From Escherichia phage WG01, in the sequence record NC_031928.1: a stretch of 64,000 bases of DNA, one strand, 5' to 3'. Shown piece by piece: positions 24,209-44,881 of this stretch. The notes under the pieces are model-generated. The model saw only the letters and a program-made list of their open reading frames with translations, ran no database searches and was not told where the DNA came from. Both the position numbers and the translations under genes were made by a program. Positions within the stretch are counted from its first letter, which is position 1. Each line of letters starts with the position of its first letter.

Positions 24209-24663
24209 AATAAATCTCTCAATTTGTTTAGGATGTCGATAAACTCTTTTTCAGTTAGTATTGTATCACATTCTGTAAGGTGGCTCGCCATCGAATGCTT
24301 TAAAACTTTGCCCTTTGTAGCTTGTAATGCGTCGCGGAATCCTTTGTTTTGGAGCGCTGCTTCAAAATAAGCATTTGTATACAACTCTTTCCATGATGCA
24401 GAGTATCTTGAAAAGGGAATTCCAAGCCAGAAAAGCGTCCCACGGTCCGCAGCTCTTGCATAAGCTCTTCCAGTTTGTTGTGCGGCCAGACCGGACATCC
24501 CAAATATACGTTTTTGTTGTTCATGATTTCTCACCTTACACCCTTGGAGGAATCCTTCGAGCCCTCCAAATTGGATACCATCCATAACGAAAGGCCATTT
24601 AGCAAAGTTACTTAATGCACACGATGGCCACGGAAAATTACTTCTGATTTCTAACTCAGACAT
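24205..24663 (-). CDS. NADAR (YbiA/DUF1768)-like protein, 30.3 position (152 aa from ATG)
   Basis: SNFAKWPFVMDGIQFGGLEGFLQGCK resembles the NADAR signature FSNF..WP...DG....E.....K; start ATG overlaps upstream stop (ATGTCTGA). Confidence 0.55.
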   Translation of the reverse strand: MSELEIRSNFPWPSCALSNFAKWPFVMDGIQFGGLEGFLQGCKVRNHEQQKRIFGMSGLAAQQTGRAYARAADRGTLFWLGIPFSRYSASWKELYTNAYFEAALQNKGFRDALQATKGKVLKHSMASHLTECDTILTEKEFIDILNKLRDLL

Positions 24664-24868
24664 CTTTGACACTGATAATCTTGGTTGCATACCACATGCC
24701 ATGGTCTGGCAATCTTTCTTTAATTGACTGCCCGCGATATGTTTTTCGCATAACAACAGTTTTAATAGCATCTTCATCGCAAGCATATGGCGGTGATAAA
24801 TCAATAACACGATAAGTCACTTCAACCAGTTCCAAGCCAAACAGCTTTTTAAATAATTTCTTAATCAT
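24656..24868 (-). CDS. Small protein (70 aa), tandem paralog A
   Basis: Paralog of 24878..25090; shared EVTYRV.DLSP and C-terminal IISVKD(V/I). Confidence 0.6.
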   Translation of the reverse strand: MIKKLFKKLFGLELVEVTYRVIDLSPPYACDEDAIKTVVMRKTYRGQSIKERLPDHGMWYATKIISVKDV

Positions 24869-24877
24869 GAAGACTCC

Positions 24878-25090
24878 TTAAATATCTTTGACACTGATAA
24901 TCTCTACATCAGCCCAATGACCATAACCAGGTAGACGGTCTTTAATAGATAATCCGCCGTCAGATTTCAGCATTTTAATTGTTTTAGTATATGGTTCATC
25001 TTGTGGATGCACAGGAGATAAATCAGTTACACGATAAGTCACTTCGACCATTTCCGTACCTAATAATTTCTGAATCAATTTCTTAAACAT
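24878..25090 (-). CDS. Small protein (70 aa), tandem paralog B
   Basis: Paralog of 24656..24868; the 3' ends share an identical 23-nt stretch. Confidence 0.6.
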   Translation of the reverse strand: MFKKLIQKLLGTEMVEVTYRVTDLSPVHPQDEPYTKTIKMLKSDGGLSIKDRLPGYGHWADVEIISVKDI

Positions 25091-25614: not shown

Positions 25615-25980
25615 TTAGATGTCGAATTCGTTCAGAACTACATCAAAGATTGCTTCCAGGTGTTCAGGTTTAGCTCGGTTGCTCAGGATGTGACGAATCC
25701 AAGTTTTAACCAGAAGCTTACGATTAACACCGTTCCAGCAAGGATGGGTACCTAAATCACGTTGACGGAAATCATCATCTAAAGCGATTTTAAAAGTAGA
25801 ACCTTCCATTGTGATTGAAACCGTAATACCATTTTCAAAGCGCATATAAACGTAGTTAGGAGTCATGCACTGTTCGATTTCGCACACTGTACCGTTTTCG
25901 TGTTTCCACAGGCAAATAACTTCGGAAGAACCAGCGATACCGTTAGAAACATATTTACGTTCGAAGTTGATGTAGTTCAT
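25615..25980 (-). CDS. Hypothetical protein (121 aa from MNYINFERK)
   Basis: ATG at 25980 follows conserved leader GGAGAATAAAA; track ORF extends further upstream. Confidence 0.5.
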   Translation of the reverse strand: MNYINFERKYVSNGIAGSSEVICLWKHENGTVCEIEQCMTPNYVYMRFENGITVSITMEGSTFKIALDDDFRQRDLGTHPCWNGVNRKLLVKTWIRHILSNRAKPEHLEAIFDVVLNEFDI

Positions 25981-26022
25981 TTTTATTCTCCAGTTTGTTT
26001 TCGTATTATTTGGTACAGGTCT

Positions 26023-26052
26023 ATAATAACACAACCTGTACCAAAGTAAAAC
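26023..26052 (-). promoter_or_regulatory. Early-type promoter with 12-bp inverted repeat flanking the -10
   Basis: Minus TTTTAC, 17 nt, TATTAT; TTTGGTACAGGT / ACCTGTACCAAA inverted repeat at 26009..26020 and 26034..26045. Confidence 0.45.
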
Positions 26053-26054
26053 AT

Positions 26055-26387
26055 TTATTTCACGACATTCCAATTTTTCATATCAAGTTTACCAACTTTT
26101 TTCATCTGAGCAATCAGACGTTCAGCGCGTGTACGGGCATTAACATAATAGAATTCACCATTTTTGTTTTCTTCAATACGACCAGTAATTACAGTTTTCA
26201 GTTCATAAATCCAACCTGTAAAGAAGTTGTGAAGCTCGATGGTGAATGTAAAATCAGTACCCATACCTTCAGTTGTTTCAACTTCGATGATATCACCTTC
26301 AACTGCAGTCAGGACCCACATGGTTTCTTGATATTCACCGTTGAAACATTTAGCTTTAACAGATGCATTCAGATTTACAGTTTTCAT
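26055..26387 (-). CDS. Hypothetical protein (110 aa)
   Basis: ORF preceded by a leader nearly identical to that of 25615..25980. Confidence 0.55.
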   Translation of the reverse strand: MKTVNLNASVKAKCFNGEYQETMWVLTAVEGDIIEVETTEGMGTDFTFTIELHNFFTGWIYELKTVITGRIEENKNGEFYYVNARTRAERLIAQMKKVGKLDMKNWNVVK

Positions 26388-26428
26388 TTTATTCTCCAGT
26401 TTGTTTTAGTATTATTTGGTACATGTCT

Positions 26429-26457
26429 ATAGTATCACGCCTACCGGAGATGTATAC
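26429..26457 (-). promoter_or_regulatory. T4-type early promoter
   Basis: Minus GTATAC, 17 nt, TACTAT, conserved leader, SD GGAG. Confidence 0.5.
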
Positions 26458-26486
26458 CCTTTTTTTTAAAGATTTAGAAACAAAAA

Positions 26487-26508
26487 TGGGACTCCGAAGA
26501 GTCCCATA
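26487..26508 (-). terminator. Rho-independent terminator
   Basis: AUGGGACUC-UUCG-GAGUCCCAU followed by UUUUUGUUU on minus strand. Confidence 0.6.
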
Positions 26509-26672: not shown

Positions 26673-26884
26673 TTTAAATCTCTTAAATTAGGATGCAGGA
26701 CTTATTGGCGTTGCCTGCGCAAGCCCTCAAGGGGAACATAGGTTTCGGATATTTAACGACAGGATAACCATAAACCTCGTCATCATACCAACCACGACTT
26801 AGACAGATAACCTTTTTCTGACGCGTGATAGTACAAAATACATTCAAGAGGTACACCGTAAAACTGTTGGGGTCTTAAAACTAT

Positions 26885-26904
26885 AATGATTCGCAAATCA
26901 TTAA
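26885..26904 (-). terminator. AT-rich hairpin downstream of rIII
   Basis: TAATGATT-TGCG-AATCATTA followed by TAGTTTT on minus strand; weak stem. Confidence 0.3.
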
Positions 26905-26934
26905 TCAAACAGTTCGACGGCTCCTCGATTTAAC

Positions 26935-29606: not shown

Positions 29607-29636
29607 ACTATACCACAGTCCTACCATAGTGTAAAC
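29607..29636 (-). promoter_or_regulatory. T4-type early promoter
   Basis: Minus GTTTAC, 18 nt, TATAGT. Confidence 0.45.
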
Positions 29637-44814: not shown

Positions 44815-44881
44815 ATGAACCTCTGTCCAATTAGTGTAGAGGTTCATTATATCACGACCCTAGAAGAAGTAAACACTTTGC

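What the first reader, a model, noticed from the sequence alone, without database searches (positions are those of the whole stretch)
25981..26457. Duplicated 5' leader on two unrelated genes, one copy with a perfect 12-bp inverted repeat around the -10
The genes starting at 25980 and 26387 are preceded by a nearly identical ~40-nt leader (AGAC[C/A]TGTACCAAATAATAC[G/T]AAAACAAACTGGAGAATAAA-ATG) although the proteins are unrelated. In the downstream copy the -10 element TATTAT is bracketed by TTTGGTACAGGT and ACCTGTACCAAA, a perfect 12-bp inverted repeat at 26009-26020 and 26034-26045. That is an operator-like arrangement for a dimeric DNA-binding protein, or a cruciform-prone site. The shared leader could also be a common translational-repressor target.
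Basis: seen in the sequence. Interest (0 to 1): 0.5.

Follow-up and report, generated by a model that had tools for sequence, protein, structure and literature searches.

The report
Twin early-promoter hairpin cassettes flanking gene 30.8
Two neighbouring early promoters of a T4-like phage share almost the same sequence from the -10 box to the start codon, and each lies inside a hairpin that only read-through RNA can form; this is a clear example of the already described "PeSL" promoter/stem-loop cassettes that let these phages swap small genes, not a repressor operator.

Summary
A 52-nt direct repeat (92% identical) precedes the orthologs of T4 genes 30.7 and 30.8. A perfect 12-bp inverted repeat brackets the -10 of the 30.7 promoter, the only such repeat in 64 kb (0.07 expected by chance).

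The window is a Dhakavirus (JS98/QL01/Bp7 group). Both copies are sigma-70-type early promoters with their leaders. About half of the roughly 14 early promoters in the window share the post -10 consensus AGACCTATCAACTAAT, but this pair is far more alike than any other (93% against a 43% median). In relatives a divergent 30.8 allele replaces the resident one, with breakpoints exactly at the two repeat copies.

The inverted repeat persists across at least six lineages with different arm sequences. Seven of 14 pairs show compensatory changes, the non-Watson-Crick pairs are G.U on the sense strand, and the hairpin centre shifts relative to the -10. This indicates an RNA hairpin in read-through transcripts, not a protein operator. 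In other genera, and at the window's own 30.8 promoter, the 3' arm is the Shine-Dalgarno sequence. Both leaders end in the RegB cleavage consensus GGAGAATAAAA.

This matches the published PeSL cassettes, whose stem-loops commonly overlap the -10. It is a new member of a known kind, of modest interest.

The parts
25615..25980 (-). Gene 30.7 ortholog (121 aa), the downstream gene
   Evidence: ORF list; Pfam PF06919, E = 2e-51; synteny with T4 30.7
25981..26032 (-). Repeat copy 1: -10 region plus leader of 30.7 (TATTAT-AGACCTGTACCAAATAATACGAAAACAAACTGGAGAATAAAA)
   Evidence: Direct repeat family D1; 93% identical to copy 2 over 46 nt from the -10, against a median of 43% among early promoters
25981..25991 (-). 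Shine-Dalgarno GGAG inside GGAGAATAAAA, an exact match to the strong RegB/S1 cleavage consensus
   Evidence: Pattern scan; consensus taken from PMC3014915
26009..26020 (-). 3' arm of the hairpin (ACCTGTACCAAA); covers the predicted transcription start region of P30.7
   Evidence: covariation
26023..26028 (-). -10 hexamer TATTAT of P30.7, preceded by TGt (extended -10) at 26029-26031; lies in the hairpin loop
26034..26045 (-). 5' arm of the hairpin (TTTGGTACAGGT); occupies the -35/-10 spacer, so it is absent from RNA started at P30.7
26046..26051 (-). -35 hexamer TTTTAC of P30.7 (GTTTAC in most relatives); starts 3 nt after the 30.8 stop codon (26055-26057)
26055..26387 (-). Gene 30.8 ortholog (110-aa allele); the swappable ORF bounded by the two repeat copies
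   Evidence: Pfam PF06019; replaced by a 122-aa allele in L022, L066 and L018 with breakpoints at the ATG and at the P30.7 -35
26387..26438 (-). Repeat copy 2: -10 region (TACTAT, 26429-26434) plus leader of 30.8, ending in the RegB consensus GGAGAATAAAA (26387-26397)
26393..26400 (-). ACTGGAGA: the SD-containing 3' arm of the P30.8 promoter-spanning helix
   Evidence: MFE structure; SD unpaired probability 0.09 in read-through RNA versus 0.62 in promoter-initiated RNA
26443..26450 (-). TCTCCGGT: anti-SD segment in the P30.8 spacer, the 5' arm (one G.U pair)
   Evidence: different but still complementary arms in T4 (TTCCTTTGT/ACAAAGGAG) and VR7 (TCCAGTG/CACTGGA)
26452..26457 (-). -35 hexamer GTATAC of P30.8 (17-nt spacer, TGa extended -10)
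26476..26507 (-). Canonical intrinsic terminator after gene 30.9 (ATGGGACTCTTCGGAGTCCCAT plus T-run), just upstream of P30.8; with the promoter it forms a classical PeSL arrangement
   Evidence: Terminator scan; the homologous T4-type hairpin is annotated as a rho-independent terminator in phage Aplg8

Best explanation
The two copies are neighbouring early-promoter cassettes of the PeSL type (promoter-early stem-loop; Arbiol et al. 2010, Comeau et al. 2014). They belong to a T4-like Dhakavirus and sit in front of the orthologs of T4 genes 30.8 and 30.7. Each cassette has a sigma-70-type -35/-10 promoter, a short A-rich leader, a GGAG Shine-Dalgarno sequence and the ATG.

Duplication. About half of the early promoters in this genome share a leader consensus. 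These two have been made almost identical by homologous recombination or gene conversion in the -10-to-ATG interval. As a result the 30.8 ORF is flanked by direct repeats and can be exchanged as a module.

Hairpin. The 12-bp inverted repeat is not a protein-binding site. It is the stem of an RNA hairpin whose arms occupy the two sequence-unconstrained parts of the promoter, the -35/-10 spacer and the +1 region. The -10 lies in the loop. The 5' arm lies upstream of the transcription start, so the hairpin can exist only in RNA that began further upstream (read-through RNA). At P30.8, and at P30.7 in other genera, the equivalent helix pairs the spacer with the Shine-Dalgarno sequence and would silence translation of read-through RNA. 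At P30.7 in this phage it does not reach the SD. There it most likely acts as an attenuator, or as a 3'-end stabiliser for the upstream 30.8 message.

RegB. Both leaders also carry the RegB cleavage consensus, so both early messages are probably inactivated together.

Shown: the repeat, the promoter-like geometry, conservation and covariation of the hairpin, the strand asymmetry, the allele swap with breakpoints at the repeats, and the predicted SD masking.
Inferred: promoter activity, the transcription start, the hairpin's molecular role, RegB cleavage, and the recombination mechanism.
For: Identity and context:
- The window is 99% identical to Dhakavirus phages.
- The genes are the 30.7 and 30.8 orthologs.

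Promoters:
- P30.7 reads TTTTAC-N17-TGtTATTAT and P30.8 reads GTATAC-N17-TGaTACTAT.
- They belong to a set of about 14 minus-strand early promoters, about half of which share the consensus TACTAT-AGACCTATCAACTAAT.
- Hinton 2010 notes extra consensus regions in T4 early promoters.

Pair-specific homogenisation:
- The pair is 93% identical, the next-best pair 74%, the median 43%.
- T4 lacks the duplication although it keeps the hairpin core.
- The exact leader occurs only twice per genome, in six Dhakavirus contigs.

Module swap:
- Window versus L022 is 93-100% identical up to the 30.8 ATG, about 50% across the ORF, and 93-100% again from the P30.7 -35.
- Both alleles are PF06019.
- The same allele is found behind three different promoters.

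Hairpin:
- z = -3.6 to -6.4 in 30 of 32 distinct variants.
- 82% of cells are paired, against 35-44% in slid controls.
- 7 of 14 pairs show double changes.
- Covariation score is 0.392 against 0.179 in shuffles, reached by 0 of 500.
- Arms are unrelated in sequence in Winklervirus, Marfa-like, EcS1-like and Roth51-like phages.
- The sense strand is more stable than the antisense strand in 22 of 24 design-a variants and in all six sequence-distinct arm types. The two exceptions (L028, L055, in the VR7-like group) are essentially tied.

SD masking: the SD is unpaired with probability 0.00-0.09 in read-through RNA and 0.26-0.89 in promoter-initiated RNA, at P30.8 and at design-b P30.7 promoters.

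Literature:
- PeSL stem-loops are most commonly between -35 and -10 or overlapping the -10, with G-T pairs highlighted.
- Mini-circle crossovers map between the SD and -10 boxes.
- PeSL-like sequences are noted in JS98.

RegB: the consensus is matched exactly, and regB is present in the genus.
Against: - No experiment on this phage or this locus was available. Promoter activity and transcription starts are predicted only.
- The P30.7 hairpin has no U-tract (AAAUAAUAC follows it), so it is not a canonical intrinsic terminator. It does not change predicted SD accessibility in this phage (0.59 read-through versus 0.42 own RNA). Its molecular role here therefore remains inferred.
- A G.T-tolerant sense-strand DNA hairpin would leave the same comparative signature as an RNA hairpin.
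- SD masking at the window's P30.8 is not significant on its own against shuffled upstream sequence (10 of 60 shuffles mask as well). It rests mainly on cross-lineage conservation.
- The related sequences are not fully independent. There are about six independent design-a lineages.
- The alignment used for covariation needed a placeholder N in the loop to set the register.
Confidence: 0.7

Rival explanations
1. Operator for a dimeric DNA-binding protein (phage or host). The protein would bind the palindrome around the -10 and repress or time the 30.7 promoter.
For: A perfect 12-bp palindrome centred on a -10 is classical operator geometry. The core GGTACAGG/CCTGTACC is conserved between Dhakavirus, Gaprivervirus and Tequatrovirus.
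Against: - The arms are replaced by unrelated sequences in other genera while pairing is kept.
- The imperfections are G.T in one orientation only, which breaks dyad symmetry on duplex DNA.
- The dyad centre shifts 2-3 nt relative to the -10 in the L042 and L068 types.
- In several genera the 3' arm is about 30 nt further downstream, at the SD.
- The second leader copy (P30.8) has only one half-site.
- No sequence-specific repressor of T4 early promoters is described in the reviews read.
Confidence: 0.05
2. DNA-level structure. Under negative supercoiling the repeat would extrude as a cruciform or a single-strand hairpin. This would modulate promoter opening or serve as a recombination hotspot, independent of RNA.
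For: The + strand folds significantly as DNA (-12 kcal/mol, z = -4.76). PeSL stem-loops were shown to form in single-stranded DNA during sequencing reactions, and a crossover was mapped in a stem-loop's loop. G.T mismatches are tolerated in DNA hairpins, so the sense-strand asymmetry does not exclude a sense-strand DNA hairpin.
Against: - A cruciform needs both strands to fold, and the antisense strand is 2-6.6 kcal/mol less stable in most design-a variants.
- The 13-nt spacer disfavours extrusion.
- Design-b helices have loops of 25-30 nt, which is implausible for cruciforms but normal for RNA.
- The 3' arm coincides with the SD in many lineages, which makes sense for RNA only.
Confidence: 0.12
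3. Neutral by-product. The palindrome and the duplicated leader would be recent accidents of template switching (quasipalindrome correction) and local duplication, with no function.
For: The stem is perfect only in the Dhakavirus group and is imperfect in T4. The leader duplication is confined to one genus. T4-type phages are highly recombinogenic.
Against: The hairpin is maintained across at least six lineages in which gp30.7 is only 44-55% identical, with compensatory changes at 7 of 14 pairs. It has significant z-scores in nearly all of them. Neutral drift would have destroyed it. The duplication itself could still be neutral.
Confidence: 0.08
4. Intrinsic (rho-independent) terminator for 30.8 transcripts that happens to overlap the next promoter, as PeSL stem-loops were originally interpreted.
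For: One PeSL stem-loop reduced downstream lacZ as strongly as rrnB T1. The hairpin starts 9 nt after the 30.8 stop codon and is stable (-20 kcal/mol).
Against: No U-tract follows the stem in any lineage (AAAUAAUAC, GCAAUUAAAC, AACAAGGAG and others). The terminator scan does not call it, whereas it does call the hairpin after 30.9. Annotators of relatives mark only that other hairpin.
Confidence: 0.15

Closest known systems
PeSL (promoter-early stem-loop) cassettes of T4-like phages (Arbiol et al. 2010, PMC2839356; Comeau et al. 2014, PMC4122927)
   Same: - A composite of an AT-rich tract, a sigma-70-like early promoter, a stem-loop, the SD and the ATG.
- The stem-loop overlaps the -10 or lies in the spacer, and contains G-T pairs.
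- There are many copies in plastic regions in front of small genes of unknown function.
- Copies flank ORFs that are replaced between close relatives.
- Crossovers fall in the -10-to-SD interval.
   Different: - PeSLs were described in RB49/phi1, PST/T4 and nt-1/KVP40, and only in passing for JS98. This locus and genus were not analysed.
- RB49 stems are polyG/polyC and were interpreted as terminators. Here the stem is mixed-sequence and has no U-tract.
- Comparative data here add covariation, sense-strand asymmetry and, in some copies, SD sequestration. The 2010 paper does not mention translation.
Promoter-inside-hairpin translational control of T4 genes e, soc, 49 and I-TevI (reviewed in PMC3014915)
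   Same: The 5' arm of a helix lies upstream of a promoter. Long transcripts therefore form the helix and short, locally started ones cannot. In P30.8, and in P30.7 of Karamvirus- and Gelderlandvirus-type phages, the 3' arm is the SD, as in those genes.
   Different: The internal promoter is an early sigma-70 promoter, not a late one. In the window's P30.7 the helix stops about 17 nt before the SD and does not mask it.
RegB/S1 cleavage sites in T4 early mRNAs (consensus GG*AGRAYARAA)
   Same: Both leaders end in GGAGAATAAAA at the SD of an early gene. The motif occurs only on the gene strand, four times in the window.
   Different: Cleavage was not tested. regB is not in this window and was found only in close relatives, at about 58-60% identity to T4 RegB. 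The motif accounts for only the last 11 nt of the shared 52 nt.
Operator palindromes overlapping the -10 (for example lac- or LexA-type repression)
   Same: A perfect dyad centred on a -10 hexamer.
   Different: Half-site sequence and position are not conserved, pairing rather than sequence is maintained, and no cognate regulator is known.

Membership tests
PeSL cassette | Sigma-70-like early promoter (-35, spacer of about 17 nt, -10) in an intergenic region | tested here: met
   P30.7 reads TTTTAC-N17-TATTAT with TGn. P30.8 reads GTATAC-N17-TACTAT with TGn. This is a sequence match only; activity was not measured.
PeSL cassette | Stable stem-loop within or next to the promoter (five positional subclasses, including overlap with the -10) | tested here: met
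   A 12-bp stem with the -10 in the loop, -20.2 kcal/mol, z = -3.96. The subclass definition is in PMC2839356.
PeSL cassette | SD and start codon of a downstream small gene at the 3' end; AT-rich tract upstream of the -35 | tested here: met
   GGAG is followed by a 7-nt (P30.7) or 6-nt (P30.8) spacer and then ATG in both copies. An A-run lies upstream of the P30.8 -35 (aaatctttaaaaaaaa), and the tract upstream of P30.7 is modestly AT-rich (gaaataaatg).
PeSL cassette | Repeated, sequence-related copies clustered in plastic regions of the genome | tested here: met
   About 14 related early promoters lie on the minus strand of the window, and about half share a leader consensus.
PeSL cassette | Association with insertion, deletion or replacement of the flanked ORF between close relatives | tested here: met
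   The 30.8 allele is replaced, with breakpoints at the 30.8 ATG and the P30.7 -35.
PeSL cassette | Recombination between flanking copies yields mini-circles | not testable with these tools
   This needs inverse PCR on infected-cell or virion DNA. A 406-bp circle is predicted from the repeat spacing.
PeSL cassette | The stem-loop attenuates or terminates upstream transcription | not testable with these tools
   No U-tract is present, and one published stem-loop was active. This needs in vitro transcription or Term-seq.
Intrinsic terminator | GC-rich stem followed by a U-tract | tested here: not met
   The stem is followed by AAAUAAUAC. The scan does not call it, whereas it calls the hairpin at 26507-26486.
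T4 e/soc/49/I-TevI-type RBS-sequestering hairpin with an internal promoter | SD and/or AUG paired in the long transcript and free in the transcript from the internal promoter | tested here: not met
   Not met for the inverted repeat at P30.7 in this window: SD unpaired 0.59 in read-through RNA versus 0.42 in own RNA. Met for the other repeat copy, P30.8 (0.09 versus 0.62). Met for P30.7 in L031, L034, L044 and L064 (0.00 versus 0.26-0.70).
T4 e/soc/49/I-TevI-type RBS-sequestering hairpin with an internal promoter | The internal promoter is a late promoter (TATAAATA) | tested here: not met
   Both promoters are -35/-10 early types.
Dimeric-protein operator | Half-site sequence and position conserved among relatives | tested here: not met
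   Arms differ completely between genera while pairing is kept, and the centre shifts 2-3 nt.
RegB/S1 target | Intergenic GGAG within GGAGRAYARAA at an early-gene SD, unpaired | tested here: met
   Exact matches lie at 25981-25991 and 26387-26397. The SD is predicted to be largely open in promoter-initiated RNA. Cleavage itself was not tested.
RegB/S1 target | The phage encodes RegB | tested here: inconclusive
   There is no regB in this 64-kb window, as expected from the T4 map position. Homologs are present in same-genus phages CLB_P2 and VR5.
Rfam RNA family | Match to a curated covariance model | tested here: not met
   The only hit is a chance mir-12 match at 19.9 bits against a gathering score of 55.

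The most novel reading that the evidence does not exclude
Promoter-spanning helices might be a general transcript-origin filter in the tandem early units of T4-like phages. The -35/-10 spacer of an early promoter would encode an anti-leader or anti-SD segment. Then only RNA started at a gene's own promoter is open for ribosomes and for RegB. RNA reading through from upstream would be translationally silent and nuclease-protected at that gene. The P30.7 hairpin of this phage would be a re-targeted version of the same device, pairing with the +1 region instead of the SD. This would extend the late-promoter e/soc/49/I-TevI logic to early promoters and give PeSL stem-loops a translational role that their discoverers did not propose.
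Probability: 0.25. Interest if true: 0.55.

Novelty: new member of a known kind. Interest (0 to 1): 0.32.

Why it matters
The locus is a clean natural example of how T4-like phages exchange small early genes. A 333-bp ORF sits between two nearly identical promoter/leader cassettes, and relatives carry a different allele with junctions exactly at those cassettes.

The comparative data also sharpen what the stem-loop part of such cassettes is. It is a structure under selection for pairing on the sense strand, built from the sequence-free parts of a promoter, and it exists only in read-through RNA. In some copies it hides the ribosome-binding site. That gives concrete, cheap experiments in T4 itself, which has the same hairpin. 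Those experiments would decide whether these stem-loops terminate transcription, stabilise RNA or gate translation.

It does not reveal a new regulator or a new class of element.

Tried and rejected
- Operator for a dimeric protein: rejected on comparative grounds.
- Canonical intrinsic terminator: rejected, because there is no U-tract and the scan does not call it. Annotated terminators in relatives turned out to be the other hairpin, after 30.9.
- SD sequestration by the P30.7 hairpin in this phage: tested and not found.
- Dispersed mobile leader element: rejected. The exact leader occurs only at this locus, twice per genome, in one genus, and the 15-mer core has no further copies in the window.
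- "Unrelated gene" in the 30.8 slot of L022 and L018: it proved to be a divergent 30.8 allele.
- Universal SD masking by early-promoter spacers: only a subset of the 14 promoters show it.
- Known RNA family: none.
- MAFFT alignment of the promoters placed the 1-nt length difference inside the stem. It was redone with a placeholder N in the loop.
- The metagenome scan added few new lineages.
- The Miller 2003 T4 genome review is not held.
- No T4 TSS or 3'-end map was found.
- The supplements of the PeSL 2014 paper are not held, so I could not check whether its authors listed the T4/PST 30.7 PeSL.
Full report
**What is there.** The genes in this part of the window are on the minus strand. The window is 99% identical to Dhakavirus phages such as vB_EcoM_FB, QL01, IME281 and Bp7. 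By synteny and Pfam, the two genes are the orthologs of T4 30.7 (25615-25980, PF06919) and 30.8 (26055-26387, PF06019). They lie downstream of 30.9, rIII, 31 and cd. The two proteins show no similarity to each other.

- The repeat finder gives a 52-nt direct repeat, 25981-26032 versus 26387-26438, at 92% identity.
- It also gives a perfect 12-bp inverted repeat, arms 26009-26020 and 26034-26045, with 13 nt between them.
- This is the only perfect 12-bp inverted repeat with a 3-20 nt spacer in the 64 kb. Dinucleotide shuffles give 0.07 on average.
- The hairpin folds at -20.2 kcal/mol as RNA (z = -3.96) and -12.0 kcal/mol as DNA (z = -4.76).

**Anatomy of the downstream copy (P30.7), read 5' to 3' on the gene strand.**
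- TAA, the 30.8 stop codon
- atg
- TTTTAC, the -35
- TTTGGTACAGGT, the 5' arm
- tgTGt
- TATTAT, the -10
- ag
- ACCTGTACCAAA, the 3' arm
- taatacgaaaacaaact
- GGAG
- aataaaa
- ATG

**Anatomy of the upstream copy (P30.8).**
- A canonical terminator hairpin with a T-run (26507-26476)
- An A-run
- GTATAC, the -35
- aTCTCCGGTaggcgTGa
- TACTAT, the -10
- agacatgtaccaaataatactaaaacaaACTGGAGAataaa
- ATG

. So the repeat is not just a leader. It runs from the -10 hexamer to the start codon of two sigma-70-type early promoters.

**The leader is a family trait, but this pair has been homogenised.** A scan of the window for GTTTAC-N17-TAnnnT followed by an SD and an ATG finds about 14 such promoters on the minus strand. 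About half of them share the post -10 consensus TACTAT-AGACCTATCAACTAAT...GAGGAG. Hinton's review notes that T4 early promoters share consensus beyond the core elements.

- Over 46 nt from the -10, the 30.7/30.8 pair is 93% identical. The next-best pair is 74% and the median is 43%.
- T4 has the P30.7 hairpin core (GGTACAGG...CCTGTACC) but a different, shorter 30.8 leader.
- The exact leader occurs only at this locus, twice per genome, in six Dhakavirus contigs of IMG/VR.

The duplication is therefore a lineage-specific sequence exchange between two adjacent cassettes.

**The repeats bound a swappable module.** In L022, L066 and L018 the 30.8 slot holds a 122-aa protein (MKINLNSY...). This is a divergent 30.8 allele, also PF06019. 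Window versus L022 is 93-100% identical from 30.9 to the 30.8 ATG, about 50% across the ORF, and 93-100% again starting at the P30.7 -35. The same 122-aa allele sits behind three different promoter/leader types, and the Dhakavirus-type promoter/leader sits in front of both alleles. In L022 the two leader copies are identical from TATAGACC to the ATG.

**The inverted repeat is a conserved structure, not a conserved sequence.** I collected P30.7 regions from 32 IMG/VR loci, 12 metagenome loci and 8 GenBank phages of other genera. Among the 32 distinct variants, nearly all fold into a helix of about -13 to -24 kcal/mol that spans the promoter. z-scores are -3.6 to -6.4, with two weaker exceptions.

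The arm sequences differ by lineage:

| Lineage | 5' arm / 3' arm |
|---|---|
| Window | TTTGGTACAGGT / ACCTGTACCAAA |
| Winklervirus | GGTGAGAGTCT / AGACTCTCACC |
| Marfa-like | TTGGTGTAGGAGTA / TACTCTTACACCAA |
| L045 | TTTGTAGGAGAC / GTCTCCTACAAA |
| EcS1-like | GCTGATTGAGTGT / ACACTCAATCAGC |
| Roth51 | TTGGGTGGT...ACCACCCAA, plus a G.U-rich inner stem |

On a gapless, -35-anchored alignment of 13 distinct sequences that share one register:
- 82.4% of cells pair, against 35-44% when the partner is slid by 1-3 columns.
- 7 of 14 pairs show changes on both sides, in 20 cells.
- The covariation score is 0.392 against 0.179 in shuffles, reached by 0 of 500.
- The eight core pairs are paired in all 13 sequences.

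**Which molecule folds.** All non-Watson-Crick pairs are G.U when read on the sense strand. The sense strand is the more stable one, by 2-6.6 kcal/mol, in 22 of 24 design-a variants and in all six sequence-distinct arm types. The two exceptions (L028, L055) are essentially tied. The hairpin centre sits 2-3 nt further downstream in the EcS1-like and Roth51-like groups.

In Karamvirus, Gelderlandvirus and related phages the spacer arm (CTCCGTTGTATGT, or CTCCGAGGTTT in L044) pairs about 30 nt downstream with ACATACAACGGAG (or AAACCTCGGAG). That partner is the Shine-Dalgarno sequence itself.

These facts fit an RNA helix and are hard to reconcile with a dimeric DNA-binding site. They disfavour a two-strand cruciform. 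A sense-strand DNA hairpin cannot be excluded.

**Consequence of the geometry.** The 5' arm lies in the -35/-10 spacer, so RNA started at the gene's own promoter lacks it. Only RNA started further upstream can form the helix. This is an inference from promoter geometry; the transcription starts were not mapped. The arms occupy exactly the promoter positions that carry little sequence constraint, and the constrained -10 sits in the loop.

**What the helix would do.** Partition-function folding gives the probability that the SD is unpaired:

| Promoter | Read-through RNA | Promoter-initiated RNA |
|---|---|---|
| Window P30.8 (TCTCCGGT : ACTGGAGA) | 0.09 | 0.62 |
| T4 P30.8 | 0.00 | 0.89 |
| P30.7 of L031, L034, L044, L064 | 0.00 | 0.26-0.70 |
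| Window P30.7 | 0.59 | 0.42 |

At P30.7 in the window, in T4 and in other -10-in-loop lineages there is no consistent difference. The P30.8 spacer-SD helix is kept with different arms in T4 (TTCCTTTGT/ACAAAGGAG) and in VR7-type phages (TCCAGTG/CACTGGA).

Across the 14 early promoters of the window, real upstream sequence masks the SD far more than shuffled upstream sequence at three (61548, 33368, 44874; 0 of 60 shuffles). It does so more weakly at two (15409, and P30.8 at 10 of 60), and not at the rest. SD gating is therefore one use of these helices, not a universal one.

For the specific inverted repeat in the finding, the role is probably attenuation, or 3'-end protection of the 30.8 message. 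No U-tract follows it, so it is not a canonical terminator. The canonical terminator in this stretch is the hairpin after 30.9, which is what annotators of relatives mark.

**Shared 3' end of the leaders.** Both leaders end in GGAGAATAAAA. This is an exact match to the strong RegB/S1 cleavage consensus GG*AGRAYARAA (PMC3014915). The motif occurs four times in the window, all at SDs on the gene strand. regB is not in this window, but homologs are present in same-genus phages (CLB_P2, VR5) and in 1,136 T4-like records. Co-inactivation of both early messages by RegB is plausible but untested.

**Comparison with what is known.** Arbiol et al. 2010 defined PeSLs as composite cassettes with an AT-rich tract, a strong sigma-70-like promoter, a stem-loop, an SD and an ATG.
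- The cassettes flank ORFans that are inserted, deleted or replaced between close relatives.
- Mini-circle crossovers mapped between the SD and the -10 boxes.
- PeSL-like sequences were noted in JS98, a Dhakavirus.
- Comeau et al. 2014 extended this to T4/PST and to KVP40/nt-1.

The locus meets every PeSL feature that can be tested in silico. The interval duplicated here (-10 to ATG) is the published crossover interval. The SD-masking copies work like the e/soc/49/I-TevI hairpins, but with an early promoter inside. No Rfam family matches.

**Verdict.** The operator interpretation is not supported, and the shared post-transcriptional target is partly supported, through RegB. The best explanation is a pair of PeSL-type early-promoter/stem-loop cassettes, homogenised by recombination, flanking an exchangeable 30.8 allele. 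The palindrome is an RNA hairpin formed only in read-through transcripts. This is a new member of a known kind.

The added value is strong covariation evidence for the stem, and the link between promoter-spacer arms and SD masking, which the PeSL papers do not discuss.

Noticed in passing
window 61548-61493, 33368-33309 and 44874-44814 (minus strand): Three other early promoters whose upstream or promoter sequence pairs with their own SD (ATCTCCATTA/TAATGGAGAT, CTCCTCAT/ATGAGGAG, GAACCTCT/AGAGGTTC). The predicted SD-unpaired probability drops to 0.00 in read-through RNA, and 0 of 60 shuffled-upstream controls do as well. At 44874 the 5' arm starts right after the -10, so it may also be present in the gene's own transcript.
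   Followed up: partly
window 29636-29576, 32077-32013, 60805-60727 and 40603-40548 (minus strand): Further early promoters with the -10 in the loop of a hairpin, for example GGTAGGACT-gtggTATAGT-AGTCCTACC at 29636. This is the same design as P30.7 with unrelated arm sequences. Conservation in relatives was not examined.
   Followed up: no
window 58369, 41606 and 40892 (-35 positions, minus strand): Three near-identical early promoters (GTTTACa.c.gc.tttaaaca/gtgaTACTATagacctatcaa). The -35 GTTTA pairs with TAAAC in the spacer, so the stem-loop overlaps the -35. 41606 and 40892 are 74% identical over 46 nt from the -10.
   Followed up: no
window 24656-24868 and 24878-25090 (minus strand): Two adjacent 70-aa ORFs are paralogs, 57% identical over their full length (BLASTP E = 3e-26). 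This is a tandem duplication in the 30.4/30.5 region. The closest annotated relative, QL01, lists a different gene complement here.
   Followed up: partly
window 26673-26934: A 262-nt stretch without a convincing ORF lies between rIII and 30.9, with a promoter-like site at 26908-26880 (minus strand). T4 has a similar gap of about 245 nt. GC content is the same as the window average and there is no Rfam match. It could be a long 5' UTR of 30.9.
   Followed up: partly
L035 (VR5) and L066 (PSD9), about 25 nt upstream of the 30.7 start: In these Dhakavirus relatives the end of the 30.7 leader is changed, and GGAGAATAAA is replaced by (CT)AAACCAAAGGATAATAAA. The RegB-consensus SD is lost while the hairpin and the rest of the leader are kept.
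   Followed up: no
L065 (Klebsiella phage vB_Kpn_AM_K6, 261 kb), 399-1079: The gp30.7-like domain is the C-terminal part of a longer 226-aa ORF. No promoter or hairpin lies in front of it.
   Followed up: no
L042/L043/L047/L048 and L068: The promoter-spanning hairpin is centred 2 nt (EcS1-like) or 3 nt (Roth51) further downstream relative to the -10 than in the other lineages. Roth51 keeps the 3' sequence AGACCTGTACC of the window but pairs it with a different 5' arm through three G.U pairs.
   Followed up: partly
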